Shown: positions 11,553-35,353 of the stretch, piece by piece
How the letters are laid out: the number at the start of each line of letters is the position of its first letter
How positions within the stretch are numbered: position 1 is the first letter of the stretch
Assembly (NCBI GenBank): GCA_905178155.1
Contig: CAJINV010000004.1
Span: forward strand, 5,231,381-5,266,733
Direction: 5' to 3'
DNA: 35,353 nucleotides
From: Amoebophrya sp. A120
Taxonomy: Eukaryota > Protista > Dinoflagellata
The notes under the pieces: generated by a model
What the model was told of the DNA's origin: nothing
The model's database searches: none
What the model saw: only the letters and a program-made list of their open reading frames with translations
Made by a program: the position numbers and the translations under genes

Positions 11553-14500
11553 TTACTCACTATCTAGACCCCTTCTACCAAGAAATCCAGGTTCCTGGTG
11601 GTGAAGCTCGGACAACATCGCACCAGGGTGTTGTCCACCTGCCGTGGCGCTAGCGTCTGGCATCATGCCACAAGCGAGAGCGGCCGTTGTGTTATTCATC
11701 CCACTAGCTCCCGCTGCACCAGCCCCGGCCCCTGCACCGGTCGGCGAAGTAGTCTGACCGGTATTGCCACTGCTATTGTTGTTCACGACAGCAATATTTG
11801 TTTTCTCCAGGCTATCGCTCAGCAGCGCAAACATGTCTCGCACATCGTTCACCAGATTTTTCCAGGCAGCCTGTCCTCGCTTGTTATGCGCCGATGAAGT
11901 AGCTGCAGCTCCACCCGCGCCTGCATTCGGACTAGCCAGGTTGCTGCTAATATCCTTGTTAGTACCAACTCCCCGATAATTATGCGCTCCGCCGCCCGGC
12001 GACGACAAGAGCCCTTGGTTATTTTGTCCTCCGACGAGGACAGTCGCGCGCCCGCGATACTCTGATTTCCTTTTCGCTAAGCCCTCTTTCGCCTTCCACA
12101 GGGAAAAATTTTTCAGCTCCGTCACGGTTTTGCGGTTCGCGTAGCTGGTGCCCGAGTTGTTCGGAGAGGTTGGGGGAGGAAAAGTGTCCAAATCGAGCGT
12201 CCCAGGACCGCCGCCGCCCTTGTGTTGATTCGCTTTCGCCAAATGAGACTTTTTATTGCTTCTCGAGTACGAGGTTTTGTTCTTATTGCTTCCATAATTT
12301 GTTCTACTGGCTGCTGCTGCTCCATCAGATTTCGCCTTGCGGATAGCGGAAAGTTTCTGCGAAGCTTGTTGCCCTTGTTCGCCGGGAGAGTGGTCTTCCG
12401 TTCCACCTCCAACCATCATCTGGGTCACGCGCGAGCGCGTGCTGGAGGAAGAAGAAACCGCTTCGGTGACGCGGCGGACCGCCTTCTGTATCTTCGATTT
12501 CCAGGGGGATGGCTTGGTGTTGCTTGGATCATGTCCGTCTGCATTTACAGTGGCTAATCCTGCTTCATGCTTATCCCCACCAGCATCCGAGTCATCGTCG
12601 TGGTCCACATCAATGTTCGCCAAATTGCCAAACCGCAGCGTCTTTTTTGGCTTGTAAACGACCTTCTCTTTATTTTCGTCAGAAGTACTGCGAGGCAGGA
12701 GGTCTTGTTCTCTTCCTGCGGTAGTAGTTGTAGTTGTCTCCCGATTTATTGTCTTCGATGAACTGTTAACACCTGCACTTCTACTGCTTCCATGAGCCTG
12801 CCCTGCATCAAAACCATCTGTAGCTTTTGTCTTCGATCCTTTGGCGCTGCAGCTTGTTGTGCCACCTAGTCCTCCGGTCGTTGTACTAGTAGTAGTTGCC
12901 CTCTTATTATTTCCACGAGCAGGACCTTCGATGACCTTTTCCCGGTCTAGCCGCAACAAATTTTCTTCCTCCGGCACGGGTGCAAAGTACAACACGGTAG
13001 CCTCGGAAAGCCCAGAACAGACCCACTCCGCCCGTTTGACCACGTCCATACGCACTTCGCGGGAATGCGCCACTTGCACGATCTCGCGAACGAGTCCCTG
13101 CTGGAGCAGAACTGTGCGTTTTGATGAATTTGATTTGAAATAAAAGCAATCAGAACTACACTTGCAATACCTTGCTACAACGCACTTGGCGAGAACATGG
13201 TATCTATCTGTATCTTATCACATGATTACAATTACACATAATTTGGAACAACATTTCTACCAGCAGGCAACAACCAATACCTGCCTCTCCCTCTTTGTCA
13301 TTCCCAGACAGGATGCCGATCATGAACAAGACCTCCAGCAAAAACTCGTACCCATGCGTATCCCACGCGAGATAGTAGAACTGCTTCGCGAGCGGCAAAC
13401 TCTTGGCACACAGAGCCCGCCTCGCGTCGCTGTTGAACCCGAGCGACTGCAGGATCTTGGTGAGAGAAAACTCCAGAGGCGGCAGGTCCGGGTCGTGGTG
13501 ATCGACGTTGTATTGCCCCTCGTCGTTACAATCATTTCTCGACATAATTCTTGTTCTTGACACCGCACGACCACCAGGTTCTGTAGTCTCGTCCTGAGTT
13601 TCCTGTGCAAGGAAAATTCCTCCACTAGTTGCATCTCCCTCCTGCGATTCAGGATTTTTCGTTTTCATGCCGGTAACATAGTTCGTAGAGTGCCCCAGAA
13701 CGTGTTGTTTTTTCGAAGATGTTCTTGGACTACTACTGCTCGCGCAATTCTTCCCTGAAAACCGAGGTGCAGGGCTTTTCATCGTAGCAAAATCGAAATC
13801 CCCCTCATCCGGTTTCAAATTTAATACGTGGTCGCCAAATTTTAAACTCGATCCGAACCGAACGAATTGCGCGACAATTCCCTCCGCCAGACAAAAGTCG
13901 GAAAGTTTTCCGCCGCAGCACAACAACCCGGCGAGTGCGTAGGAGGCGCCGGTGGGGAGGGAGCTTAGGAGTACGACCAAGGTTTTCACAAGCTTTTTCT
14001 CTACAACAAGAGCTCCTTCATCTGGGAGAGTTGTATTGTTCTTAGTGGACGAAGAGGACATTGCTCGCGTAGTAGATGGAGTGGTTGCTGCCGTAGTACC
14101 CGTAGATCTCAGCTTCATGGGCTGCAAAAAGTGCTTCGCCCACACGGGCGAGACTAGTTGACCTCCTGTTTTGTTCGGGCACGCGCTCCTGTGGGTGTTA
14201 TTCATTTGCTGCGAAAGCGCGAGGAGGTCTGTTGGCAACAAACTCCCAAGCGCAAAGCACAAACTGCTCGTGACGGTCTTCTTGGTCGTTTTATTTGTAG
14301 CACCAGTTGTCGTGGGGTCTTGGTTTCGTTCATCTTTACTGTTATTCTCAGAAGGCGAGGATGCGGTTGCGGAAGGATCAGAAGTCGTTATCGTTTGCAA
14401 CATATCGTCGAGAGAATTAGTTCCTTCTTCCTCCGTCACCAGGAGAAGCAATTCGACAACCAAACTTAATCCTCCTAGCTCCAGCACCTTCTCGCGAAAC

Positions 14501-17500
14501 CTCGGCGAAGCGCGACTGAACAAAGCCACCGCACGCGCCGCTTCCGCCAGAAGAAAAGACGAATTTTCCGAAGCGAGTGCAGTTAGGGCGAGTTCCGAAG
14601 GTAGTTGTGGTAGAGTACTATACTGCATCCCAGTTGTTCTTTCATCTCTCTCCGCTTTCACATTTATTTCTTCCGGAAGATTGCCTGCCGTGTCGTGGTC
14701 CTCTCGGCGTCCTTGCTTTTTTGCCATTGCCTCCTGCTCATCTCGGCTCGCCGAACTACACGCTAGGTTTGTAGTTTTGGTCATTATCTCCAAAACGCGA
14801 GAAGCTAGATCGTCGCACACACATTCCGCAAACAACGCAGCGTTGTGAATGGTTGCACGGCTGCTGTCCTCGGATTTGTAGTGGAGAAACACTTTTGTTA
14901 AGCAACGCAGCGCCGTTTGTGCCACGATCGGATTTGGATTTGCCTCGTCGGGGAGGTGATTTCTTGTTGTAGTCCCGACTTGCTCCACAAGGGCACGCAC
15001 CAAAACACGAAAGTGCTGCACTGCGTCGTGCAAGAGAGACCGGTAGTGCTTTGCTTCCGCGCCGTTGTTCTGCTGCGTGGTGTTGTTGACCTCTTGATTC
15101 ATTACGACTCCACCTAGAGCTTGTATGCGCACGTCCAAATAAAGTGCGGCCTCAACATCAAGTGTTGAAGTGCCTGAACAAGTTGAATGCGATGTATTAG
15201 TAGATGCCCTCGTTGTTCTGGTAGAAGCGGTCAGATCACTCGGTAAGTAGAAGTTCTCGGCAGAAGAAGATCTTCGCTTAGTGCCAAATCGCCCCAACGC
15301 TAAACACTTCTGGAGACTTCATAAAGACTTTGCAAAAACTTTCGGTGAGCAGGGAAATGCAACACACATCGCGCCCTTACTTGGGCCCGCCGCGCGGTCC
15401 GGAACGCCGCATGGCGTCGGGGCTGCCCGCGCCCCTTGCTTCTTTGGGTTTATGGCCGGGCGCATTTCGGCCAAGAATCCGCTCGGCGCGATTTTTCGCC
15501 GCATGCTACGGCGCGCGGATGTTCGCGCCTGTTTGAGTAGCTCCCAGCCGTCAGCCGTGGCCGGCCCCGTCTCAAGCCCTGCTCGCCCCCACAAGACCCC
15601 CGGCGGCGAAGCCTCACCGGGCGCAACCCCGAATCGGCCGGCTTCATCAGCAAGCGAAGGGCTTTCCAATGGCCAACGGATTCCGGGCCCGCCGCCCTCC
15701 CGGAAAACTTTCGCTGGGCCACGGATTTGGCCAACAACTGCTACCTCCAAAAACGCCAATTTCAGAGGCGGTATAGGAACTAATAAGTGGCCCTTTTTTT
15801 GTGCGGCGGGTCAGCGAAAGTCTTGCGAAAGTTCTCCGGAGACAATCAAGCCCCTCGGCACCGCGATAGGAAAAGCGCGCACTTTTTGCGCCGACCATAG
15901 CATGGGGCGAAAAATCGCGCCCAGCGGATTCTGGCTGTTTCGGAATGCGCGCCATACCATCGCGCGAAAAATCGCGCCCAACGGATTCTGAGGGTAGTTC
16001 TCATTTTTTACATAGTGGGGGCAGGTTTCTGCTGCCCGTTCTGCCTTGTTGTTCTGCCCTTTTGTGTGCTGGCCGTGTGGCCTTTTGTGTGATTTTGCAC
16101 CCGCTACGGAAGCTCTTTCGGAAAAAATTTACCATGCGCGCCGGAAGCCCGAAGTCCACGACCAGCAAAAGTTTTTAAAAAGTCTTTTTGAAGTTCTAGG
16201 GTGTTATAATAGCTGGGGCGATTTGGCAGTAATAGAAGCGGTCAGATCACTCGGTAAGTAGAAGTTCTCGGCAGAAGAAGATCTTCGCTCGGGAAATACT
16301 TTTTCAAAAAACTTTTTTTTTTCGCCACATATGATCTCACGGCACTCCATAGACATACAAGCGGGCACGCGCAGAGTAGATCTGTCTAAGCGAGTAGACG
16401 GCTCTTGGTACTTAGCTAGCTACCTGGGACGCAAAAGAGATGCGGCCGCCGGAGTAGCCGCGGCCTTGGATTCGGTCCGTGGCGCTCTGGCCTCAAGGTA
16501 CTTGACACACAATGCCCCCACCGCGGCCTTTGTGTATGGCGCGGAGGCTCACGGTAAGTCAGCGAAATTCTGAGTGGCTCGCTTAGATGCGGCTGTCTGA
16601 AACGCGCGTGTCCTCTAGGCGTCGCCCGCCCCAGCTTTCGAAGTGCCCCAGTAGACAAATACAGATCAGGCTGAGAACTTCGGCGTCTTTGGGTTTGTTC
16701 CGGGCCAGGTTGATGTACAGATCCCCGTCTTGGCCGAATTCGCGCTGTCACTGTTCCAGCCGCATTCTTGCGAAAGCCGCAAACTTGCGGAAACAAAAAG
16801 CGCGGCCGGGCCCCCCCTTGAGGGGGGGGGTTTGGGGGACCCCCCTTCGTGGAGATATCAATGGGGAGTAGCTCTCGGCAAAGGCCCCAAAAGGGGGGGG
16901 GTTGGGGGACCCCTCGGGGGGGCCCCCGAGGACTTCGACTTGCAGCCGAGGAGGGAACTCTGCTAGCCTCCTGGCAAAACAGGCTGGGGCGAAAAACCGC
17001 ACCCCGAGACCCAGACCCGGAGGAGCGCCGCGGCCCTGGCATCACTGTCGTCAGCGCTGCCGCGTATGGATTTGAATTATTTTGAAGTTGCGCGCGGGCG
17101 CCTGTTTCTCCTGCTGGGGCGTGGGCCTGCTGCTGGCTCCAACCCGCAGCACGTCCGGCCTTGGGCTGCCCGCGTATTGCTTTCATTAAAGCGGCAGCAC
17201 TGCAGGGGTTGGCCTTCCGACATTTACGCCGGCCACGCCGGACCCAAAGCCATGACGCAGTGAGCCCCGAGCGCGGTAATCTTCTTGCCGTCACGCTAGC
17301 GAGCTCAGGATACCACTGCAGACGCTGTTGCCACGCAGTCGATCTTTGCCGGCAAAAAGCCATCTACTCACCGCGACGGGTAATTTATATGTGGCAAAAA
17401 AAAAAAGTTTTCAGAGAAAGTGTTTCCCATTGCCATATACTCGGTATGTTGAAGTTTTCTACTGCAGAAGAAGATCTTCGTATCCAACAAAAAAGCATTA

Positions 17501-20500
17501 GCGTTAGCGTTTTGAAATTTGCTGGCGAAAGCCAAATTTTTCTTGATTCTAGTTAGAGGGGTAGCTCTGTGCAGTTCAGACAGATTCGCGCAAACTGGAA
17601 GCAGTGGAAGCAGTCTCTTCGGCTGCGGAGCGGATTGGAGATAATACCGCCAAAGATGTGGGCGACGGCTCGGCCGCGCGCATGTCTGGGGCTCCACGGA
17701 CTTCCGGCTACGCGACCGCCTGACCATGCGGCGGGCCGACAAGCCGTCCTTCCTGGAGTGCCTCAAGACCTGTATTTCCCTTGCGGCTTTTGCACTCGAG
17801 AAAAGTGATCAATTTTCCAAAAATCTGGCATTAGCGTTTTTGCCCTCGGAGGTCATTTTGACCCCCCGATCAGAGGCAAATTTGCGTGGTCGCAAAAAAA
17901 AACGCTAATAAACTCATGATAGCACCGGGGAAGCTTTCCATTTCTTGGATTCACAAAAAACGCTAATAAACTCATGATAGCACCGTGGAAGCTCTCGCGA
18001 AAAAAAAAAGCGAATTTTTATAAGCTCACCCTTTCTGCACGCTATCCAGAGTTTATTAGCGTTTTTTAGGTGTTGACATAAATTTACACTTTCTGCACGC
18101 TATCATGAGTTTATTAGCGTTTTTTTTGGCGACCACGCAAAGTCGCATGATTTTGACGAGAAATCTTGCCGTTTTTTGTTGGTCCTCCCGAGAACGCTAA
18201 TGAACGCCGGGCCTGAACTCAAACCCGCATTACAATCTGCCGCATTTTCCTTCAAATCAGGCAAAACACCGGCGACCTTGGTCGCGACTCTTTTGCGTGC
18301 CGAGAAGGGCGCGCCAGTTAGGCGCTGCGGAGCATGGAGCTGAAGGGCCTGGCTGTCACATACGGGACCGACGAGGGCTGCTCCGCCAAGCTGCTGCGGC
18401 GGGTGGGGCGCTTGTTTGAATGATATTGGATACTATTCCTTCGTCTGAACGGAAAGTAGCTAACGTGACATGCAAAATCAAAAAAAATTTCGTTTGTTCG
18501 AACAAATCTCAAAACGCTAACGCTAACGCTAACGCTAATAAGACTACTCGGTGAGTTGAAGTTCTCGGCAGAAGAAGATCTTCGCAAAATTTTCATCCGC
18601 GCCAGCATCTGCGCAAAATGTAGGAGCTCGAAGACAATTTGACCTGCTTGGGCTGATAAGCACGAAAAAGGCCTCGGAAGGGGTTGTTGCAGCAGGTTTT
18701 TGGAAGTTTGCTCCGATGCAATTCCCCGCCTCTCCGCATCAGGGCCACACAGAGCGAAAAACCTACCCGCCCTGAAGACATTGGCGCGCGCACTGATATC
18801 AGACACGAGGCTGCTCTGCTGCATTTGGAGAGAGGCCAAGCCGTCTTACAAAGAGCGAAGCAGTAACGAAGGCACTAGAGCAAGTTCGCTACTTTGCTTG
18901 CTCGAATCTCTGATCCGAAAAGCACACCCGTGCCTCCGTGAAGGAAAACCGTAGCGGAGCAAGTTTGCTGGTGATGCATTTTGCTCCGATGGAGACACGG
19001 ATGCGTTTTCCGGATCAGGGATCTGGGCGATGTTTTCCTCGATTTCGTCACCAAAGTTGGGAGCAATGCCCCCAGGCTCGCGTGAGTTGCCCTGATGGAC
19101 CTCTTCAGGTTGTTAGCGGTCCAAAGGCACTCAAGGCCCAGGGCTTCGATCCGAAAAACGCATCGCTGTCTCCATCAGAGCAGATTGGACGAGATCCAAT
19201 GTTGTCCATATACATCTAACAAGAACCTCGAAAAAAAACTGCTCCGATGCGTTTTTTTCTGAAGCGAATCACGATGGAAAAAAATGCATCGGAGCAAAAT
19301 GTCGGATACCCCATTCTTGAACCCCCAAGGACGACCCCCAAAGGCTATTTCCCGGAAGGCCGGCACTTGCCCTCATGGTTGCTCGGATGCAAATCCAAGA
19401 CCTTTGGCTGGCCGTCAACGCATCGGGGCTAGCCGCACTCAAACGGCGCGTGAGGCTCCAAGCAGAACGAAAGCGCCGCCGCCAGAAAGAGAGCCGGGCG
19501 GAGAATGTCAGAGAGGCACTGGGGCAAAACACACTGAAACCAAGCGTAAGAGAAAAACCGGGGCCAGGGTAAAACACAGCCCAGCGTAACGCGCTCTAAT
19601 TCTGGCGCCCAACCGCGAAGGCCACCAATGCCGGCCATAGCGCTAGACTCAGGCCGGTTGAGGTGTCTTGCGGTCAGCCGTCCGAGACGCGCCACAAAAA
19701 ACATTGCAAATTGGCATGCAACAACCCCTGCAGACACACCCTCGGACCCGGTCGGGCGACGGCGTGAGTACCATGCCCGCTGAGAAATTGGCATCGAAGC
19801 ACTCGAAGCTACGGACCGCCAGGGCCGGGGATTTCTATAAGCCAAGGTCCCGGAGGTCCGAAAACAGCCGCAGCATTTATGTGCCAGCCGTGCGTACTCT
19901 CAAGCGCTTCGGGAATCCGAGACACTACCTTTTGCGCAGATGCAGACAGGAATGCATTTTTCAGAGGATTAAACTCGGTAAGTAGAAGTTCTCGGCAGAA
20001 GAAGATCTTCGCGTGGTCCTGCTATGCTGCAGCAGTTTAGCGATCACCAGGTCGGTGTCCGGAGAAACAGGAAAAAAATTAGTATCATCCGGCGACGGTC
20101 GTGCTGGAATTATTGATCCGCATCCGATCGGACGTCGAGTGGGATTATTGATGAGAAGTACCCGCAGTGCGGAAACTACGGAGGCGAGAATTGTATCCGC
20201 TAAATGATCCTCTAGTTTCAACGTGTTCTCCAAGTTTTCAATCGCAAAAACACGGATGCTCGTGTTCATGGCTTGTTGTAGTTCATCTTCTTCGCCTGGA
20301 ATGGATTTTGGTAATTCGCCACTATCAAGAGCAGGACCTCCGTCAACATGTGGAGCTCGGACCACTACTGCGGCTAAAAGTTGCGACAGCAGTTGCGACA
20401 CTGTGCTGATAGAGTTGTTGCAACAGTGAAGAAAACGCTTTTTCATCTCCGCTGTTCTTGGTGTTCTTGCACCTCCTGCTTTCGACAACTCGAGGTCCTG

Positions 20501-23500
20501 CTCGTGCTCTCGCTTGGACTTGGAGGAATTTGAACTACGACCGGCTCCTGCTGGTTGAAAATAAAAATGTGCGCCAGCTTGACCATTTTTATCGCCGCTG
20601 CTCTCCCGCTTTATCGTTGTGCTAGTACTGCTCGTGGTGTAGTAGTCGTCGCGCTTGCCCCTTTCATCTCCTTCTACTTCCATGGCAGAAGTAGATGCTG
20701 CAGGCCCTCCTCCTGGAGCGGTACAGCCACTACTATTCATCGGCATCGGGTCGATATAATCCATTCGCGTTTCCAGTAGCCAGCAGTGCGCCGCACAGAG
20801 GAGTTGCAGAAGGATTGGTGAAGGGGATAAGAAGTGCGGTTGTAGTTCCGGTGCGCCGGACGAAGCTGCATTCAACGGACGAGGGTTGTGTGGCGACTGC
20901 ATCGCTGGTTGTTGTACACCAGCATTATCTGGCAGCTGCTCTAGTACTACTTCATGCGCACTATCTTGTTCAACACCTTGATGATTCGAACTCTTCTTCT
21001 TGACTACTGATTCTTGAACTGCACGGTAGTTTTCCGGTACCGGGCCAAAGCTTTCGAGAAACTCAAGCACGATTTGCAAGAACCAGGCCGGGTGTAGTGG
21101 GTCATTTTCCGTAAGGTAGAAAGGGCCTTTGTTATCGGGGACGGGGAGTTGTGTAGTGCTCTCGCGGGAGAATTCAAGATCACTCTCTGTTAAACGATTT
21201 GCCGCGGTGCTGCTTCTCGAAAATGAATAAATTCCCGGCATCATGGGATGGCTCGCAGTGCCAGATTTATTACTTTCCCGCCCGCTACTGTCGTTCATCC
21301 AGCCGCTGTCACCATTATACAGCGCAGAATTCACTTCATCGCTCCTTTCCTGTTGCAGGGACGAAGTTTCGCGGCTCCAATAGTATGTCTGGCACCGGTG
21401 CAGCGCAATCAGGAGTAGGTCCACCGGAAAGGGCTTCGTCGATGAATTAGTAGAGGCTTGAGTGCTCGAATTATTGCTCTTTCGAGTTGTTGGCAGCGTG
21501 GTTGACGACGAGGCAGATTTTCGCATGTCCTGGCCTGGCGGTCCAGGTCCTATACTACTTCCTTCTGGAGCAGGAGCTGCCAACATAATTTTTAACCCGT
21601 CGCACACCACTTGCTGCACGGCGTATCCAAACCTCCGTTGCAGCCGAGACAAAACGATCAGCAGCGACTGCAGGGCGCGCAGCACGTCTTTTGGGATGAA
21701 AAGATCCTGATTGTAGGATGAAGCCCCCACGCGGTGTTGATCCGGCACAGCGCTTTCGCGATTCGGGAGGGCAGAAGTTGTGCTAGGACCTGTAACAGCA
21801 GCACCGCAGCTCTTACGCTGCTGCTCGGTCAGCGTCAGGTTGCTAATGTTACAACTATTTACGTCGTAGTTCGCACTGGAACCAGAACCATCCATTTTCC
21901 TCGTGCTTCTGCCACTTTTAGAAGAAGTAGCTGTTGATGTTCCCGCTGCGACGATTTTGGAGTTACGTGTAGCTGTTCTACTTCCAATCGCTATCGACGA
22001 AGAGAGCCTCGCTGAAAAGCGCGTCTTCCTGTCGACAACATCAGACCTGTTGATAGTATTACGTTCTTTTTCATCATCGGCCCCGCCGTCGCACAGGAGT
22101 GCACCTAAGCTCACCTCCCCGGTGATTTCTTCCCGGAGCTTTAAAATTGCGACGCAAATCCCCCGGGCAAGCTCTACGGAGGTCGAAGCATCTAGCTGCG
22201 CGACGGCGTCCTCCAAGACGCAAGACGACAGGCGGAACAGCAGGTCGGGGTCGTTGGTCCGCGTTCCGTGGTGCAATAAGTCGGAAAACAGAGGGACGGA
22301 CAACTGCAGCAACTCAAAGTCGTTGCACTGCGCCGCCTTTTCCCACAACAGCAGCAGGGGGTCGCGCAGCGCGGACTCGCAGAGGATATCTGACTGGGCG
22401 AGGTACTCAATCAGGTGCACGAAGGTCTTTCGGTTTTCGGCCAAAAACGCCGTTCCAGACGAGCCCACACGTAGTAAAACGCACCACAGTTTTATCCCAA
22501 GAAAAAAACTTTGAGTCTTAGTGTAGGTCTTGAGGGAAAACATAAACAGCATCATGAAAACTGATTTGCATTTTCTGCATCACAGACTCACTTACACTTA
22601 CACAGTTTTTTTCCAACGATAAATTTCTCCTGCAAACGCAAACCCGAGAGCTGCTCCGCGGACGAAGAATTGTCGGAGTCGGAGGTAGTTTCGGAATCGC
22701 TAGTTTCGCCGAAATTGTTTTTCCTGTCGTTTTCTTCGGAGAAGCTGCTGATATTGTCCTGATCGTCGTGGTTTTGCTGTTTATTTTTGGTACTACTTTT
22801 ATTTGCGAATTCCGCCGCGAGTCTTGCCGGGTCGCGCTTGAAGTTTTGTGAGCTGGCTGCAGAAACTTCCTGCACATTTTGATCGCCATCACTAGAAGGA
22901 CATCCTCCAAAGGCTTCTAGCAACGTCGGAGCCGCTGCTCCTGCTGCAGCAGCTCCATCCATGTAATTGGAGTTCTTCCCTTCGGCTGAGTAGACTCCGT
23001 CCTGCTGCCCTGCGGTAGTTGCAGTAGTACTCATAATTCCAGCCAAAACCACAGAACCGGCACCTGCTCCGGTCGGCGACGTGGCAGGCGATTGCTGACT
23101 TGATGTTGTACCACCTCCTGCACTTTTCAGCGCCGCCACGGGCTGCGCTACGCTCAGGGTCGCCCGGAAGGTGCGCCGCCGCGCCAGGCTTTTGCCGAAC
23201 GCAGTCGTCGTGGCGCTGGCCACCGCGGTATTTTTGTCACCTCCAGCACTTTGCTGGTGTTCGTCGTCGCTGTTCAATTCTCCTTCTTGTTCTTGCCCGT
23301 GCAAGAAATAGTCGGCCGAGTGTTTCAAAAACCCCCGCACCACCTCGCAGAACTCCTTGACGTCCGAAAGAATCGCTGGTGTACGGAGAAACGCCGCGAC
23401 CGAGGGGATTTCGGCCAGCGTGCCCAGCACATGGACCGACTGAATCGCCAAGTCAATTCGGTCCAGCTCCTGCTCGTCGGAGCGAGCGGCGGCATCCTGC

Positions 23501-26500
23501 TCGTTCAGCTGCCTGCTCGTGGTTGATAGTTCTTGCACTACATCCGCGGCCCCACCTTCGTTCAACACCTTGTTCATCTTACAAACCGCCGGCACGAGCT
23601 GCGGAAATTTGCGGCGCAAGTAGCCCTGCGTTCCGCGAACGATTTCGATCAGCGTTTTGGCCGCTGCGCAGAAAAACGCCGGTTCTAGATGGTGCATTTC
23701 GGAATCTAGCAGGTCGAACAGTCGCTGCCAGCTGTCCTGCAAAGACAAGTGGATGTGCGGCAGCTCGGTGTGCTGGAGGGTCAACAGCGTCTCCAATATA
23801 GCGCAGCGAGAGAGAAAGGGCAGCTCTTGGAAGCGAACCGGTAGATTTTGTTCATGATCTCCCTGCACGGACGTGGACGCTGCTGCTGCACTTTGGGATG
23901 AATAAAATTCCTCGGTCAGGAACTTCCGGACCTGCAGAATACACTTCCCCTGCAGGCTCGGCGAGCTGTCGCGAGCCAAGGAGGCGAGGGCGAGCAGACC
24001 CGGCTCGGAGATAATTTTTGAAAACGAAGGTGCTTGTTGGATAAGTAGAGGATCATGTTCTACTTGTTGAACATCTTCAAATAAACCTCCTACGGAATCT
24101 TCGTCTAAATTTTCTTGCCCCCCCGCGGCCTCGGTCGAAGTGTGACGCGCCGCGGCGCCAACAACCAAAGCCTGCGACCCGGTTGGCACCGTCGCCCTGG
24201 ATGATGTTTTCAACAATGGATATGATTCTCGACCACCAGCATCTTCGTTCTCTTCGTCGGCCAGGAGGCTGCTGCGCGGGCTCTCCGACTCGTCACCTTC
24301 TCCGATGATCGACAAGTAGTCCCGAAACCGCGGCGAAGTTCCGTCGTCGGTGGTGCCATTATTGAATTGTTCATCCGCGGAAGAGCTACCTCCATGCGCG
24401 TAGTTGAAATTATTTCCGTCCGTTCGGCCAGCCGCTTTTTTATGCATCTCACCACCAGACACCGTAGAGTTGTTCTTCTCCTCGTGCAATAAGTGGTCTG
24501 ATTCCAGATGCGACTCTTGATCTTTGGCCAGCTGCACGAAGCCTTTGCTACCAGCTCCTCCGTACCTCTTTCGAAACGCGTCTATCCTGGGTGCCAATCG
24601 GCTCCAGAGGTGGTGCTCGATGTCCGCGGGAGGGACATGGGAGAAACAGGCCTTCGCCCAGTCGATGTGATTACCCCGGGCCAGGGTCCACAGCGCCAGG
24701 ACCGCCATTTTGCGGACCTGCGTGGTTGGGCTGTTTGTTAAGAGGAGAAGCACGGATATCGGCTCCAGGTGTCCGAGCCAATTTTCAAACAGCGATGAAG
24801 AAGATCCACTCGACCACGTGCCGACGACGTGGTGGGACGAAATCATTTGCGTCGAGGTAGGAGACATCTTCACGGGTCCTGAACAAGAAGATGTGCTGGA
24901 AGTCAGAAGTCCACTGTTATCCCACGAGGTCGTGGGACCTACGACACCGATGCTGTTCTTGTTTCCACTACATGATCCATTCGTCATGTGCTTGGTTCCA
25001 AAAACACCTCGCCGGGTCGTTCTTGTTCCACAAGCTCCTGGTCCTGCTGCGGTCGTAGTAGTCGTAGCAGCTGTTGAACTACCGTTGCTGCTCACCAGCG
25101 CCAGCTGCAGCAAACATTCCACACACAGTTGCTGCACCTCCGCGGTTATCCTGTGCAAAAGTATCGTACTCGTATAAATGCAGGTCTTGCATTACAAATT
25201 TCTTTGTCAAGGCAAATCAGCATTACAAATTTCATTTCTCATGCTGAGAAAATTTGTAATGCATTTATACGAGTACGATACTTTTGCAGTTCATAGCGGT
25301 GGCCGTGGGCGCGAGCAGAACCAGGGCGTCGACGCCGCGGTGCTGGACGCACTATTACATTGAAAAATGCCCCCACCCCCGACCTTGGGAGAATTTGTAT
25401 TGCAAACCTTTCCAAATGAAACCCTCACCCTCTTGCATCTATCAGCATCACAGGTTTCCAATCGTGAACAGCAAGAATGTATTGTATTACAAAAGACCCC
25501 AGCAAAAGCGGCGCTTGTCATGCAAGCGATGCGATACACGCCTAGACCCTGCATCGGAAAGATTCATACTCCTTTCATGCATGACAAAACGTCTTCATTT
25601 GGAAACTTCGCATCACAAATTTTTACAATTTAAGGGGTGGGGGGCATTTTTCACTGTAATACGCACTCCTGGTTATCCAGGAGGAACAGGGAATGCAACA
25701 GGAACAACGCGTCCCGCTGCTCTTCCTCGGTCCCGGTTGCGGCGGCGTGGAGCAAGGGCGGATACTTGTTCGCTGAGGGCGACAGGGACGGCGAAGCAGC
25801 AGTCTTGGTGACACTGCCGTCAACTGTTCCTGGTGATGTGGCTATACCTGCTGATGAGGATGCTGTAGTTGTACTGAGACTTTTTTTACTACTGCTCCTT
25901 CCAGCTGCCGTCTCGCTTGAAGTACTCCGTGGAGGTGCACCAGCAACGTGTTGCCCAGAATGGACGTCCCCATCAAGTCGGTGCAGAAACGTGTGCGTCG
26001 CGTGCTCGCGAATTTCGTTTCTGAGCAGAAATTGGCCGACAAAAGCCTCGAGCTCGCCGTCGTTTCGCCGGCTCGCGAAGGTGCCAGAACCTGTGCCCGC
26101 ATGATGATCCTGGGTACCCGCCCACTGCGAAAAGGCCAGATCGATGATGTTCGCGATTTCTGGATGGGGTTGGCTTAAAACAAAACTGGGGCTAGAAGTT
26201 CTTGATGTCGTACTGCTGTCGATGGCAACTACATCCTGTTGAGAATTATTGCCCCCTCCAGCTGCCTTGTTGCCCGCGCTGTTCCTGCTTGATGCTGTTC
26301 CAGAAGCTTTGGTTCCTCCTGAAGTACCATTTCCCCCGGTCGCATAACTTTCACCGGCGCTAGTTTCTGACGCAGGTGCACTTGATGATGATGTTGCTCC
26401 GGCACTACTATTGTTGAGGGCACTTCTAGTACCTCCGCTTGCTCGTGAAGTTGGTCCAGAAGAACTGCTACAAGAACCTCCTCCACTCGGAGCTCCTGCA

Positions 26501-29500: not shown

Positions 29501-30648
29501 TGCCAAGCGTTGCTTCCAGGTCTGCCCGAGCAGCGAACTCGCCTTCCCCGCATCCCGGGCGGAGGGATAGGGAAAATCGTCCCCCAAGGCCTCGCTGACA
29601 TCCTCTTCCGTTTCCTCGGAGACGGGTGGGAGAAAGGGATTCAGCCGTGCGGGTCTTTATCGTGAGGAAAAATCCCCCCTCACCATACTCACAATGGAAA
29701 TTTGTGATGCTGCTCTGTGGCCACAAATCAGCTTTGTCTTGCATATGAGGCAAATGGGAGCCATGTGGTGCAGTCCACAGCCAAGTTGTCATGCGCTCTT
29801 GCCTACCGCAAAGCTGTCTGTCATGCCTGAGTGCTAGCCTTTTGCAGACCTAATCAGGCTTTGGAAGTGCCTGCAAGCGCTTGCTGCAATACAGCGCTGA
29901 TTTGTCGTGTACACAAATCCAGCAACAGAAATTTCCGTTTCACTATGTCTGTGCAGGAGGATTTTTCTGTTTGTTAGTCTTCGCTTGATGGTTATCAAAT
30001 GTAAAAATGTCTAGGTCTGGAAGAATGCATGTTTGTCATGCTTGTGTGGCATGACTCTTAAATCTGTCATGCAAGTTACCCAAGAGCTCCATTTTTCTCT
30101 GATGCAGAAACGCAGTTTGTCATGCAGAATAGGCAACACCTAGAAGCTCAGAAACTTGTGATGCTGAGCCAGCATGTCTGGCCTCATCATGATACGCCAC
30201 CCAGCATCACAAGTTTCCAGACCCAGACATTTTTACATTTGATAATGGTCTCGTCTCCGACCCGGTCCTCGTCCACGCTTTTGCGCTTCTTCGCGTTATA
30301 TCAAATGCAAATATGTCTGGGTCTGGAAATTTGTAATGCAAGAAAGGGAAGAGTGAGCGCACTGTAATGCGCTGCCCAGCATGACAAGTTTTTCCGTGGC
30401 TCAGAGTTGCGCTTGCGCGCTCCGCATGAGAAACTGCGTTTTTGCATGACAAACAAGAAGAGCTCTTCGCGGGCACGCAATACAGAGTTTAGAGTCATGC
30501 CAGACTAGCATGACAAATCTCGCAATCTCCCCGACCCAGACATTCTTGCACTTGTGCATACGCTAGAAGTACTTGCGGTGGCACTTGCGGTCGTGGAGGC
30601 TGCAGCGGTGGAGGCTGCAGCAGTTTCCCGGGGCTGCTTTTGCGACAT
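11553..30648 (-). CDS. Very large (~4,200 aa) ARM/HEAT-repeat-like protein with long low-complexity insertions
   Basis: Six large same-strand ORFs join in frame after removing 6 introners, the 4735-bp cassette array and GT-AG introns (13112-13280; ~22510-22591). ARM-like helices: LLAEAARAVALFSRASPRFREKVLELGGLSLVVELL, WLTGCLANLAQ, RNCAWTLLNVAR, VRKMAVLALWTLARG. Probable start MSQKQPRE at 30648. The 3' end may splice further (GTGAGT donor-like site at the stop). Confidence 0.7.
15278..16232. mobile_element. Cassette 1: non-autonomous TIR element flanked by a 56-bp direct duplication
   Basis: ~65-bp imperfect TIR TTAGTGCCAAATCGCCCC...AAAGACTTTGCAAAAACTTT / AAAAGTTTTTAAAAAGTCTTT...GGGGCGATTTGGCAGTAA, abutting the repeats exactly. 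Internal inverted/direct repeats GAAAAATCGCGCCCA(G/A)CGGATTC. Confidence 0.85.
16289..17438. mobile_element. Cassette 2: non-autonomous TIR element
   Basis: ~42-bp TIR GGGAAATACTTTTTCAAAAAAC(T)nCGCCACATAT (16291-16332) vs ATATGTGGC(A)nGTTTTCAGAGAAAGTGTTTCCC (17387-17428). Central G/C-run hairpins at 16800-16930. Confidence 0.8.
17481..18545. mobile_element. Cassette 3: non-autonomous TIR element
   Basis: TIR ATTAGCGTTAGCGTTTTGAAATTTG...TTTTTCTTGATT (from 17497) vs AATCAAAAAAAATTT...CAAATCTCAAAACGCTAACGCTAACGCTAACGCTAAT (to 18539). Internal 2 direct + 2 inverted copies of AAAAAACGCTAATAAACTC.TGATAGC. Confidence 0.8.
18586..19972. mobile_element. Cassette 4: non-autonomous TIR element
   Basis: Imperfect TIR ...GCATCTGCGCAAAATGTAGGAGCTCG vs CGAGACACTACCTTTTGCGCAGATGC...; dispersed internal TGCTCCGATG / CATCGGAGCA motifs. 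Confidence 0.75.
25147..25295. mobile_element. Introner, family B
   Basis: TIR core TGCAAAAGTATCGTACTCGTATAAATGCA perfectly inverted, TAT/ATA ends; TSD GCGGT; internally similar to 7800-7955. Removal gives LAPTATA-EVQQL. Confidence 0.93.
25353..25661. mobile_element. Introner, family E
   Basis: TIR TATTACATTGAAAAATGCCCCCACCCC / GGGGTGGGGGGCATTTTTCACTGTAATA; TSD CGCAC. Removal gives DNQEC-VQHRGVD. Confidence 0.92.
28048..28298. mobile_element. Introner, family A
   Basis: TIR TATGAACTGCAAAAGTGTCTGGGTCTGGAA / TTCCAGACCCAGACATATTTGCAATCCATA; TSD TGCCG. Removal gives CDLAR-QMLLQKG. Confidence 0.93.
29658..29976. mobile_element. Introner, family F (degenerate TIR)
   Basis: TATCGTGAGGAAAAATCCCCC / GGAGGATTTTTCTGTTTGTTA; TSD GTCTT. 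Removal gives TIKRR-PARLNPF in frame. Confidence 0.78.
29993..30244. mobile_element. Introner, family A
   Basis: TIR TATCAAATGTAAAAATGTCTAGGTCTGGAA / TTCCAGACCCAGACATTTTTACATTTGATA; TSD ATGGT. Confidence 0.92.
30299..30560. mobile_element. Introner, family A, inverted relative to its neighbours
   Basis: TIR TATCAAATGCAAATATGTCTGGGTCTGGAA / CCCCGACCCAGACATTCTTGCACTTGTGCATA; imperfect TSD CGTTA / CGCTA. Interior matches the reverse complement of 28048-28298. Confidence 0.88.
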
Positions 30649-31328: not shown

Positions 31329-31856
31329 TGTTGGTCATGGAAATCGATCCCGCACACACGTAACACGATCGCCCCAAATGACGCCTGCTCCTCAATGAAA
31401 TGACAGTTCTGAATGACCTGAACTAGCTAGATCCTTAGGGAAATGGTCAGAATCTATCTAGATCCTGAAGGAAACTCGTCACCATGTTCCGCGAATCCCC
31501 CAAATACTACGAAGGCAAAGCCATCAGGATCGTAGTGAAATGAATGGACTCAGCTCGGTCCAGACGTTCGGAATGGTCGCCCTGGGGGACTTGACTCCCG
31601 CCAGGGTCGAGCACCAATCTGAGCAGGTTGAGGAGTGGACTCCCATGCTGTTTGGCCACTTGACTCTGACCAGGTTTGGTCCATATGAATGTGATGAATT
31701 TGGATGAATTGAACCTACAGGATGTAACGCAGCAAGAGACTTGCGTCACTTGCTTGCTTACTTGCAATTGAGAGAATTCGTCGAACTGCTGTTGATAACG
31801 AGCTCAGTGGAGCAAACGTGTGTAAGTGTGTGCGAGTGTTCTCAAGTCCACTAACA
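31329..31856 (+). repeat. Putative 5' LTR
   Basis: Begins TGTTGGT and ends ACTAACA (6/7 inverted match, TG...CA), 60 bp before the gag ATG. The 3' LTR is outside the window, so this is unverified; no clear TGG-type PBS. Confidence 0.45.
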
Positions 31857-31915
31857 CTACGTTACGCCTTGAGACTCAAACTGGCTCTTCTAGTCAGATA
31901 AGTTTATTTGAAATA

Positions 31916-33097
31916 ATGGGCCAAGAGGCAAAGCTGGTGGAGAAGTTGTCCAGCGCGCAGGACTGGCGCGTCTGGCATCGCGGAGTCACGAACGAGGTTT
32001 CTCGCCTCGGACTCCAGGAGTATTGGGATAATCGTCTTGCTGGTAACCCTCCGGGGATTCCGCAGGCGAACAATACTGCCAATAACGCGACCCGGGAGAA
32101 GTGGCGCGACCTGAGGGATGCCATCTACAAGTCGTGCACCGGGTCCGTGTCCACGTGGGTCAACAGTCAGCACTACATCAACGACGACGCTGCGCAGCTG
32201 TTCATGCGTATTCGTGATGTTGGTCGCTTCAATGTTGCCTCCCGTGACCAGCAGCACATCAAGACGTCCTCGATCGACGCCATGCATTTCGACAACCGCG
32301 ACGCGCCGAAGGATGCTCCGACGTTCCTGGCCCAGATCCACGACTTAATGGCGATGGCGCCGAGTGTCTACGTCCCGGAGCCCGGGCGTCCGGCTGAAGA
32401 TCAGCATGTCAAGAACATTCTGGACAAGTTGCCCAAGATGTTCGCGTCGGCCTTCCGCCAGACCATCGACCGCTGCGTGGACGAGTCCGATCACATCACC
32501 CCCCAGCAGATCGGCGACCGTCTCGAGAAGAAGCTCGCGCAGCTGGTCAAGGAAGGTTCGTACAAGATCGAGAATCCGTCCTTCGGCAAGGCCTTCCCGG
32601 TCGTCGAGGAAAAGACGAAGAAGAAGAAGGGAAACAAACGTCAGAAAGATGATGACGATGAGGAGCCGGACTCCGCTGATGATGGTCAAAATGCTGCTTC
32701 TGGCAAGGTGTTCTCGGCGAAAGCCTTGAAACGCATGAAAGCCAAATTGCGCAAGCAGACCGAAGCGAGTGTCTTGGCTGCCCATGGCCTGCCCCCGAAA
32801 GCTAACGCCAAGGGCGGAAGTGGCCAGAAAGGTGGCAAGACTGGTCGGAACCAGAGCACTCCCTACAACACTGTGACCAAACCCAAATGCTGGATCTGTA
32901 ACAAGGAAGGCCACAAGGCTGACCGTTGCTACTGGAATCCTAACAAAGGACAAGGGAAAGGTCAGTGGGGTGGTGTCTGGGGAAACCAGCATCCGCAGTG
33001 GTGTCCGCCGGTGAACCAGAACCAGACGAACAACCAGAATCAAGGGCAGGGAGCCGGTGGAAAGCAGGGTGGTTGGGTCTGGCAAGGACCAGCCTGA
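31916..33097 (+). CDS. gag: Copia Gag with CCHC zinc knuckle
   Basis: KLSSAQDWRVW N-terminus; CWICNKEGHKADRC (CX2CX4HX4C); ends at TGA 33095-33097. Confidence 0.85.
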   Translation: MGQEAKLVEKLSSAQDWRVWHRGVTNEVSRLGLQEYWDNRLAGNPPGIPQANNTANNATREKWRDLRDAIYKSCTGSVSTWVNSQHYINDDAAQLFMRIRDVGRFNVASRDQQHIKTSSIDAMHFDNRDAPKDAPTFLAQIHDLMAMAPSVYVPEPGRPAEDQHVKNILDKLPKMFASAFRQTIDRCVDESDHITPQQIGDRLEKKLAQLVKEGSYKIENPSFGKAFPVVEEKTKKKKGNKRQKDDDDEEPDSADDGQNAASGKVFSAKALKRMKAKLRKQTEASVLAAHGLPPKANAKGGSGQKGGKTGRNQSTPYNTVTKPKCWICNKEGHKADRCYWNPNKGQGKGQWGGVWGNQHPQWCPPVNQNQTNNQNQGQGAGGKQGGWVWQGPA

Positions 33098-35353
33098 CCA
33101 GATGAAAGAGGAGTATTTATCTCGGAGTATGGTAGCTGTATGCTGAATTTCGAGAATTTAGAAGATTTCGGCGTATATTATTCTAGCTGTTTTACTGCAC
33201 AGACCAAGGACGAAGTGAGCTTGGTCGATTCATGTGCAAGCAAGTATTTATCTAGACACAAATCGGATTTTATTGACATCTCGAGCAACGTCTGTCGAAT
33301 CAACGGCACGGCCGGGGCTCGTGATGGTTTTGTCGGAAAACTGAAGGAAAACGCTTTAGGTTTACCCTATGGCGTCTACTTTAAACATCTACCTAAAGAC
33401 ATTGATCGCATTCTTCCGTGGCTCGGTGAGGACAATCTCAGTGATCGTGGGAGGGATCTGAACTACAACAGCTCTGGCGGTTCCTTAGTCAACAGGGAAT
33501 CCGGTCAGATGCTACCAATCAAGAACCACGAGAGGTTGACCCTCCCAGTCCTTGGGTGTGGTCTTTTCGTGATGGGCCTCCGGGGTCAGGCGACTAGAGA
33601 CACCGCGGAGGATATTGCATGCATTACAATCGAAGAGAGTATTGCTAGTTGTCACCTTACGCGCCTAGAACAACATAGAAGATTCGGACACTTTCATGTA
33701 GATGGTCTGAATGTCCTGTGTCCCGAATGCGACAAAGCGAAAGGCGCGAGAAGCTCTCACGCAAAGGAGCGAGACACTAGTAATTACAAACCTGAACCAT
33801 TGAAACTACTTGCGATGGACTTCGCGGTAGGTATTAAACCTGTATCGATTCGGTCACGCACCTGCGTGCTGGGTGGTGGTCATCTGTGATGCCATCAAGA
33901 AGTGTTTCTGTGTCCCTCTTAAGCTGAAAAGTGACTGCGTTGAGGTTTTGGAAGAAGTAATAAAAGGCATTCGCCAGAACTACGCTTTGACCCTCGAGGA
34001 CAAAGCGGCATGGTTCGTCCGTCGGGACAATGAGCCAGCTCTGGGCAGTGACTCCATGACCAAGGTCATGCAATCGCTGCGGGTCGGTGATGCTCCTACG
34101 GTTCCCTACAACCCAGAGCAGAACGGAACCTGCGAACGCTTTAAGCGGACCATATTCGGCGCTGTGCGTGCGATGTTGGTGAACGTGGGCAAGCGTCTGT
34201 GGTGCTACTCGGTCGAGTACGCTGCAGCATGCTGGAACCGCCTTCCGCATAAGTATAGCAAAATGCCCGAGTACGACGGAGAGACTCCTGCAGAGATTCT
34301 AGATGAGAGAACTGGGAGAAACAGACAGTTCAAAAGTTGGCACAAGGATGCTGCGGCGTTTTGGTTGTCTCGTTTATTTTCGTGAACAAGTCAAGAAAGG
34401 CGAAGTTCATGAAGCTCCTGAGGGGGGAGTAAATGTGGTAGCTCCAAAGCTGTCCGCGCCATTTCGTCGCGGTGTATTTCTCGGCCTTTGTCCTAAGTCT
34501 TCGGGCTGGCGGGTTGGGACGTATGTCACGGATGGCCGGTCCGCCGCGGGACATCGTTGGATGGAATATTCTACCATCGACGTCAAGTTCCGTGAGGAGT
34601 ACCTCGCGAAGAATATTGAAGACCTAGTTCCTAACTCCAAAGGTATCTATGTCGAGTGTGACGCAATCGAGGCCCTACCCAGTGGAGCGTCGTGTGCGCC
34701 ATCTCTCCCGTGTGTCGGTCTGATCAAAAGGGCTGCGCACCGGCTGGGGGTGGATGTCTCGGAGTACACTGGTAGGCAGCCTGACGGTCCTGAAGAGACG
34801 TTAGTGGTGGAAAGTCTGGATAGGGAAGATGATCCGGGCCAGATACATCCCGAGCCTGAAGGTGTTAAACCTGAGGAGGGGAATCTGGACGATCACCCCA
34901 CTCACAGCAGCTTATCTAGTCCAAGAAAGGCGAGCCCGTCTCCGGCAAGGATTGTGGCTGGCAACCGCAACTCCAAGCCGCGAGGACGTGGACGACCCAA
35001 AGGGAGAAAGGACAAGAAAAAGCGCGAGAGACGTACAAAAAAAGAGCTCGAAGAAATAAAAAAAGACGCAAGTGCGTTTGCCGCAGCAATAGCAGCACAG
35101 GATGATCGAGAGGAAGGTGAGGAATTCCTCGACGTCCAGTGTTACTTGACTACATCGGCCAAGTTGGATCCAGCTCGTTGCAAAGACTCAGTCGAATGGA
35201 ACGCAGCAACCAACAAGGAAGATTGTAGACTTGAAGCCTATAAAGTGCGGGAGCCAGCTACTGACGAGGAGCTAGCGACCGCAAAGCAGGTTTTGCCTAT
35301 TGCTATCCTTCTTACCGAGAAGCGTGACGGTACGAAGAAAGCGCGAGCAGTAG
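33098..35353 (+). pseudogene. pol: Copia Pol (protease, integrase, SH3-like, start of RT) with two +1 frameshifts
   Basis: LVDSCAS (protease); HRRFGH...CPECDKAK (integrase Zn finger); FVRRDNE, PYNPEQNGTCER, LWCYSVEYAAACWNR (integrase core); RRFGCLVY...KLSAPFRRGVFLG; KRDGTKKARAV (RT start). Frame changes near 33871 and 34335. Confidence 0.85.

What the first reader, a model, noticed from the sequence alone, without database searches (positions are those of the whole stretch)
15278..20012. The whole array must be removed as a 4.7-kb non-canonical intron, or the gene is broken
Seen: the host ORFs on both sides (864 and 697 codons) have no stops or frameshifts, and the two outer R copies are identical while inner copies 3 and 4 differ. 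Inference: the gene is still functional and the array is removed by the same 'element plus one direct repeat' rule as the small introners, in one step or cassette by cassette, at RNA level or by DNA excision.
Basis: inference. Interest (0 to 1): 0.75.

Follow-up and report, generated by a model that had tools for sequence, protein, structure and literature searches.

The report
Transposon introns that duplicate tiny exons
In a parasite of marine algae, four unrelated mobile elements sit side by side in one gene; RNA-like assemblies show them cut out one by one, while the roughly 40-base gene copies between them, likely made by the insertions themselves, stay in the message as tiny exons that would add a repeated peptide to the protein.

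Summary
The array is real, but the single 4.7-kb intron is not what the RNA shows. The genome is Amoebophrya sp. A120. Four unrelated elements with inverted ends (about 0.95-1.4 kb) are separated by five copies of a 40-bp coding stretch, R. RNA-like contigs (2 samples, 1 study) show four separate non-GT-AG introns of 960, 1148, 1065 and 1400 nt. R2, R3 and R4 stay as micro-exons of 58, 38 and 30 nt. Each intron leaves a multiple of 3 (51, 42, 42, 27 nt), so the frame stays open and gains 54 codons. One junction is seen in 3 runs and implied in the fourth; the other three are in 1 of 4 runs, and the public model P0002 has two of them plus a variant of the third. A second copy of cassette 4 (L001) has one intact end, one truncated end and its own 79-bp coding duplication. 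Long target duplication therefore recurs in this family, against 5 bp for the small introners. Likely origin: serial one-ended insertions finished by repair synthesis. Contigs cannot exclude a minor fully skipped isoform. Verdict: new variant of known introners.

The parts
13281..15272 (-). Host exon downstream of the array; its 5' end is the retained part of R1
   Evidence: RNA-like contigs X3, X5, X6; public model P0001 covers 15102-13282
15222..15277 (.). Left copy of the 56-bp duplication around cassette 1 (16 bp plus R1, 15238-15277)
   Evidence: identical to 16233-16288
15273..16232 (-). Intron 1, 960 nt, TT..AA (slides by 1 to AT..GA)
15278..16232 (.). Cassette 1: inverted ends matching to the last base (18 of 19; about 80% over 65 bp), internal inverted repeats
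   Evidence: single-copy depth in X1
16233..16290 (-). Micro-exon with R2, 58 nt (52 nt with the acceptor used in the public model)
   Evidence: X4 record 7; P0002
16291..17438 (-). Intron 2, 1148 nt, AT..CC = cassette 2 (42-bp inverted ends 16291-16332 and 17387-17428, 10 extra nt at the right end)
   Evidence: joint 16290 to 17439; diverged copies elsewhere in the genome
17439..17476 (-). Micro-exon with R3, 38 nt (4 substitutions and one extra codon)
   Evidence: X4 record 7; P0002
17477..18541 (-). Intron 3, 1065 nt, TT..AA; cassette 3 is 17481-18540 with TAT..ATA ends and a central hairpin
   Evidence: joint 17476 to 18542
18542..18571 (-). Micro-exon with part of R4, 30 nt; the last 14 nt of R4 are intronic
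   Evidence: X4 record 7; P0002
18572..19971 (-). Intron 4, 1400 nt, TA..TT (slides by up to 2); cassette 4 is about 18584-19972, right end intact (TTAA), left end lacking its outer 8 nt
   Evidence: joint 18571 to 19972; intact end seen in X5 record 16 and L001
19972..22492 (-). Host exon upstream of the array, ending with R5 (19973-20012)
   Evidence: X4 and X5 contigs run from R into it; P0002
11553..30700 (-). Whole host gene, predicted about 4200 aa, no family assigned; split at intron 1 in the public annotation (P0002, P0001)
   Evidence: only sub-threshold HEAT/ARM hints; the start exon is a guess

Best explanation
The array is four separate non-canonical introns, each an unrelated inverted-repeat element, and the R copies between them are kept in the RNA as in-frame micro-exons; each R copy was likely made by the insertion beside it, which duplicated 40-56 bp of coding DNA. 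Shown: the four junctions, the open frame, unrelated cassettes, and a second cassette-4 copy with its own 79-bp duplication (my confidence in this splicing pattern as the main form: about 0.85). Inferred (about 0.55): a transposase acting in trans joined one element end to the target; the free host end copied 40-80 bp of target and was then joined to the other, often trimmed, element end with microhomology or filler. Splicing near the base of the element's hairpin removes the element plus only 0-20 nt, so 27-51 nt of each duplicate remain in the message; only insertions leaving a multiple of 3 would survive. Four rounds at one spot, perhaps helped by unequal exchange between R copies, would give the five-fold peptide repeat (54 extra residues).
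For:: X4 record 7 (131 nt, depth 8.3, above the neighbouring exon's 5.1) joins 16290>17439, 17476>18542 and 18571>19972; X3, X5 and X6 show 15272 followed by the start of the 56-bp repeat; simulated 31-mer contigs of the four-intron message have lengths 36, 34, 131, 59 and 46, matching X4 records 6, 10, 7 and 5 (75 = 29 + 46) and X5 record 14; the frame is open over 1569 codons. All four introns leave multiples of 3; the public model P0002 has introns 4 and 3 and a 6-nt variant of intron 2; best match between different cassettes is 20 bp (E 0.012). L001 holds a cassette-4 copy (847 of 856 identical) with one intact TTAA end, the other end cut 530 bp short, a 79-bp direct repeat and 42 nt of filler, 24 nt of it an inverted copy of the adjacent flank; the two repeat copies differ by 3 synonymous changes and one codon-sized gap; a third copy has a non-R flank, so R is host DNA. 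(passages of PMC5041404): one-ended retroviral integrations have one normal end, an often truncated second end and long host duplications.
Against: Junctions 2-4 come from one contig in 1 of 4 runs; the four runs are 2 samples of 1 study, are only guessed to be RNA, and P0002 is probably built on related data. The junction-1 contigs have 29-30 letters on the short side, under the tool's 31-letter bar (expected from 31-mer assembly). X5 covers both sides yet lacks the R3-R4 loop, which fits dropout or an isoform without R3 and R4. A truncated end is shown only for cassette 4; cassette 1 looks intact at both ends; cassettes 2 and 3 have no second full copy to compare. The model does not explain why all four left junctions fall at R position 38-42, why R1, R2 and R5 are identical while R3 and R4 differ and share one change, or why the duplicates differ more than the element copies (6 of 117 against 9 of 856, Fisher p 0.005; small numbers). 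No empty allele or ortholog was found.
Confidence: 0.7

Rival explanations
1. One reading: the whole array plus one R is removed (one intron, or cassette by cassette down to one R), restoring the original message.
For: The fused frame is open. R is longer than the 31-letter assembly word, so a path that skips all loops is compatible with the contig graph. X5 lacks the R3-R4 loop.
Against: Alone it predicts one unbroken contig, seen in 0 of 4 runs. Splice-specific junctions that keep R copies are present at depths like the exons. P0002 keeps R4, R3 and R2.
Confidence: 0.08
2. Same splicing, other origin: the insertions arose one at a time in different alleles at a break-prone site and were strung together by unequal crossing-over within R, or one old R-element-R unit was multiplied and its elements replaced.
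For: Explains shared boundaries and R3/R4 looking like diverged alleles with a common change. Parallel intron gains at one site are frequent in Daphnia (passages), and multimers by unequal crossover are proposed for KolobokP (abstract).
Against: Still needs long duplications at insertion; cassettes share no ends that could guide replacement; the duplication around cassette 1 is 16 bp longer than the others.
Confidence: 0.2
3. A coding minisatellite existed first and four elements later inserted at its unit junctions.
For: Low-complexity, fast-evolving protein; cassette boundaries can be drawn so that three of four leftovers are multiples of 3.
Against: R continues into the introns (5, 4 and 14 nt in introns 1, 3, 4); no 5-bp duplications flank the cassettes; L001 shows the same element-in-long-repeat pattern at an unrelated gene.
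Confidence: 0.07
4. The gene is broken into two transcripts, or the array is excised from DNA.
For: The public annotation splits the gene, with P0002 ending 9 residues into cassette 1. Upstream exons have lower contig depth than downstream ones.
Against: The intron-1 junction is in the RNA-like contigs; cassette depth equals flank depth in X1; contig depth cannot rank parts of a gene.
Confidence: 0.05

Closest known systems
Amoebophrya A120 introner elements and non-canonical introns (Farhat et al. 2021, PMC7789003; abstract, sections 11-12, passages and supplement search read)
   Same: Inverted-repeat ends that pair in the RNA, non-GT-AG sites at variable distance from the hairpin, no transposase, dispersed copies.
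   Different: Direct repeats there are 3-5 nt (surveyed to 8); here 40-56 bp and 79 bp, mostly kept in the message. Three of the four introns exceed the 40-1000 bp window that paper analysed.
Polarella and Symbiodinium introner-like elements (Roy et al., bioRxiv 10.1101/2020.10.14.339549; parts 1-2 of 4 read)
   Same: Transposon insertion makes an intron; splice sites are recruited flexibly from the element or the duplication.
   Different: Duplications of 3-8 nt and GT/GC/GA-AG sites; no micro-exons from the duplication in the parts read.
Aberrant one-ended retroviral integration (PMC5041404, passages read)
   Same: One normal end, one often truncated end, host duplication much longer than the normal 5 bp.
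   Different: Induced by drugs or mutants, scattered single events, not spliced out; here a natural non-coding element, repeated at one site.
IS1549 and IS1634 (PMC2266710, passages read)
   Same: Inverted-repeat DNA elements making long, variable direct repeats (8-514 bp), mechanism unexplained.
   Different: Bacterial, encode their own transposase, not introns.
CRISPR repeat-spacer arrays (recalled) and KolobokP multimers (PMC9587614, abstract read)
   Same: Serial units between direct repeats at one site.
   Different: R is host coding DNA; the 'spacers' are 1-1.4-kb elements; KolobokP repeats are 450-660-bp parts of the element itself.

Membership tests
Amoebophrya introner elements (Farhat 2021) | Removed from RNA at non-GT-AG sites | tested here: met
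   4 of 4 junctions non-canonical at every slide position; thin support for introns 2-4
Amoebophrya introner elements (Farhat 2021) | Inverted repeats pairing the two intron ends | tested here: met
   end duplexes of -50 to -62 kcal/mol in 4 of 4, no shuffle control; repeats
Amoebophrya introner elements (Farhat 2021) | Direct repeat of 3-5 nt at the exon-intron borders | tested here: not met
   40-56 bp here, 79 bp in L001; small introners in the window have 5 bp
Amoebophrya introner elements (Farhat 2021) | Repeated in the genome | tested here: inconclusive
   met for cassettes 2 and 4 (depth 148-320 against about 45, diverged contigs; L001), partly for 3, not seen for 1 at 90% identity
Amoebophrya introner elements (Farhat 2021) | A120 end motif TAT + 7 nt + A run | tested here: inconclusive
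   cassette 3 left end fits; cassette 4 ends TTAA; cassette 1 ends TTA; cassette 2 unclear
Amoebophrya introner elements (Farhat 2021) | No transposase gene inside | tested here: met
   no Pfam match above cut-off in the 5 cassette frames scanned, not all frames
One-ended (aberrant) integration | One intact end, other end truncated, long host duplication | tested here: inconclusive
   met for cassette 4 at two loci, with opposite ends intact; suggested for 2 and 3; not seen for 1
IS1549/IS1634 | Prokaryotic element encoding a DDE transposase | tested here: not met
   eukaryote; no transposase hit
CRISPR array | Short uniform spacers, non-coding repeat, cas genes | tested here: not met
   units 1011-1427 bp; R is exonic; no cas or CRISPR family hit
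KolobokP | 450-660-bp terminal direct repeats belonging to the element; transposase and His-Me nuclease | tested here: not met
   repeats are 40-79 bp of host DNA that differ between loci

The most novel reading that the evidence does not exclude
Amoebophrya has a class of kilobase introners whose normal insertion route duplicates 40-80 bp of target and tends to re-use the duplicated site, so that arrays grow like CRISPR arrays. With a spliceosome that cuts near any hairpin base, this would be a genome-wide machine that makes micro-exons and tandem protein repeats, and one cause of this parasite's very fast protein evolution.
Probability: 0.3. Interest if true: 0.8.

Novelty: new variant of a known kind. 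Interest (0 to 1): 0.58.

Why it matters
Introners are usually seen as leaving the protein nearly unchanged. Here each insertion appears to have added 9-17 codons copied from the gene itself, four times at one spot, and once more at a second gene. If general, it links transposition, intron gain and the birth of protein repeats in one step. The four introns, with splice sites 0-20 nt from their hairpins and micro-exons of 30-58 nt, are also a natural test set for the unknown splicing rule of a parasite reported to lack U1 snRNA. Practically, the public annotation splits this gene at intron 1.

Tried and rejected
No whole genome was available and L001's record could not be searched, so cassette copies were not surveyed genome-wide. 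X9, a raw-read RNA run with the same species label, gave 0 reads at 90%: no test. No listed holder is on record as RNA; X3 and X5 are treated as RNA because they skip the GT-AG intron 13112-13280. The near-empty depth over the cassettes in X3-X6 is not used as evidence by itself. In one search the joint table was filled by a high-copy small introner (53 rows hidden), so joined forms in the DNA-like run X1 were not checked. R had no exact match in metagenome or viral contigs; cassette patterns found nothing; the 3 hits match only over the 19-base pattern and are taken as chance. Homolog searches returned only the A120 models or nothing: no ortholog. The deeper protein search and the atlas never ran, so orthologs and the protein's family stay open. 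Rfam gave only sub-threshold hairpin matches. My guessed 41-nt GT-AG intron at 22562-22602, used, was wrong: P0002 and X3 point to a 134-nt introner; the array result is unaffected. A first whole-gene model had wrong boundaries and was redone. Literature searches listed no report of introners with long exonised duplications; subscription journals, including the published Roy 2023 paper, were not searched, and bioRxiv supplements and supplement figures could not be seen. Searches of earlier scan notes by place, words and sequence gave nothing for this genome.
Full report
Observation. The array lies at 15238-20012 in a minus-strand gene. Five copies of a 40-bp stretch R start at 15238, 16249, 17439, 18546 and 19973. 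R1, R2 and R5 are identical, R4 has 2 substitutions, and R3 has 4 substitutions and a 3-nt insertion. R1 and R2 share 16 more bases on the left. The units are 1011, 1190, 1107 and 1427 bp long. Each cassette has its own inverted ends, and the best match between two cassettes is 20 bp at E 0.012.

Organism. Both flanking exons match unnamed proteins labelled Amoebophrya sp. A120 at 99-100% and nothing else. Farhat et al. (PMC7789003; abstract, sections 11-12, passages, supplement search) describe over 60% non-canonical introns there, with 8-20-nt inverted repeats and 3-5-nt direct repeats, analysed only for introns of 40-1000 bp. The small elements in this window fit that: TAT..ATA ends and 5-bp repeats, and removing element plus 5 nt keeps one frame of about 4200 codons through the gene.

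DNA check. In X1 the flanks have depth 41.9-43, cassette 1 has 43.1 and the cassette 3 core 41.9-46.4, with no differences from the window; contig ends at 15251, 15249-16262 and 19983 are those predicted for the unspliced sequence. So the array is in essentially all genomes of that sample. X1 may be the sample behind the assembly. Cassettes 2 and 4, and part of 3, have diverged copies elsewhere.

RNA check. X3 and X5 skip the GT-AG intron 13112-13280, so I treat X3-X6 as RNA; the tool marks this as a guess, and they are 2 samples of 1 study. In one search, X3, X5 and X6 have contigs in which 15272 is followed by the start of the 56-bp repeat: intron 1 (960 nt) is removed and both copies remain. 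X4 record 5 has the length this predicts. X4 record 7 joins 16290 to 17439, 17476 to 18542 and 18571 to 19972. A simulated 31-mer assembly of the four-intron message gives pieces of 36, 34, 131, 59 and 46 nt, matching those records; the single-intron message gives one unbroken piece, seen in 0 of 4 runs. The four-intron frame is open. The introns leave 51, 42, 42 and 27 nt, 54 codons in all. None has GT-AG ends at any slide position.

Public model. P0002 carries the R4, R3 and R2 micro-exons, with the intron-2 acceptor 6 nt further on, and then reads into cassette 1 and stops; P0001 starts downstream. So three of the four introns were already in an automatic model, and the gene was split at intron 1. 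This model is probably not independent of the runs above.

Limits of the RNA evidence. Junctions 2-4 rest on one contig. The junction-1 contigs have 29-30 letters on the short side. X5 covers both flanks but lacks the R3-R4 loop; this may be dropout or a real isoform. Because R is longer than the assembly word, a skipped isoform may co-exist. In X4 the loop depth (8.3) is not below the exon depth (5.1), which argues against skipping being the main form there, though contig depth is crude.

Origin. R is host DNA: another cassette-4 copy in X5 has a different flank. A metagenome scan found L001, a cassette-4 copy 98.9% identical over 856 bp. It has one intact TTAA end, the other end cut about 530 bp short, a 79-bp direct repeat of coding DNA and 42 nt of filler, including a 24-bp inverted copy of the adjacent flank. 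The two repeat copies differ by three synonymous changes and one codon-sized gap, which suggests both are translated; its splicing was not tested. In the window the opposite end of cassette 4 is intact and the left end lacks 8 nt, with a 2-nt overlap with R4. This anatomy matches one-ended integration finished by host repair, as described for retroviruses (PMC5041404, passages). Long variable duplications are also known for bacterial IS1549 and IS1634 (PMC2266710, passages). I infer the same route for cassettes 2 and 3, whose ends are asymmetric; cassette 1 shows no truncation.

Unexplained. All four left junctions fall at R position 38-42, just after a 10-bp palindrome, and three acceptors (introns 1, 3 and the model's intron 2) use the same position in R. 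Selection for a usable in-frame acceptor could cause this, or assembly by unequal exchange. R3 and R4 share a change that R1, R2 and R5 lack. Duplicates are more diverged than element copies, which might reflect error-prone repair.

Comparison. It works like an Amoebophrya introner but fails the short-direct-repeat feature, so I file it as a variant, not a plain member. Dinoflagellate introners in Roy et al. have 3-8-nt duplications (parts 1-2). Daphnia parallel gains have 4-12-bp repeats (PMC4202315, passages). Gozashti 2025 (PMC12130899), the review PMC11282704 and PMC5801840 were read as passages and did not describe this pattern there. Searches listed no report of it; closed journals were not searched.

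Verdict. Observation confirmed; interpretation partly supported. Four individually spliced element-introns with exonised long duplications; likely serial one-ended insertions. Interest 0.58.

Noticed in passing
L001 814-1873: Second cassette-4 insertion with a 79-bp coding duplication, truncated end and inverted filler; the filler could pair with the downstream exon in place of the lost inverted end.
   Followed up: partly
window 16284-16290: Two in-frame acceptors 6 nt apart for intron 2: one in the X4 contig, one in public model P0002.
   Followed up: partly
window about 21060-21085: P0002 lacks 7 residues that the window's open frame encodes here, as if a 21-nt piece were removed; X1 and X3 contigs shown did not test it clearly.
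   Followed up: no
window 22493-22626: A 129-bp introner with a 4-of-5 target repeat also contains an in-frame-looking 41-nt GT-AG stretch (22562-22602) that the public model does not use.
   Followed up: partly
window 25147-25295: Small introner family of extremely high copy number: summed contig depth about 226,000 against 45 for unique DNA in X1.
   Followed up: no
window 31826-35353: Gag-pol-like frames (weak zinc-knuckle and retroviral SH3 hits, below cut-off) broken by stops and frameshifts: likely a decayed Copia-type retrotransposon (type recalled, not tested).
   Followed up: partly
window 29977-29992 and 30250-30296: Ordinary small introners also leave very short exons (about 11-16 and 47 nt) between them near the gene's 5' end.
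   Followed up: no
window 17880-18142: Cassette 3 has a central hairpin built of four 58-bp-spaced repeat units that share a motif with its ends.
   Followed up: no
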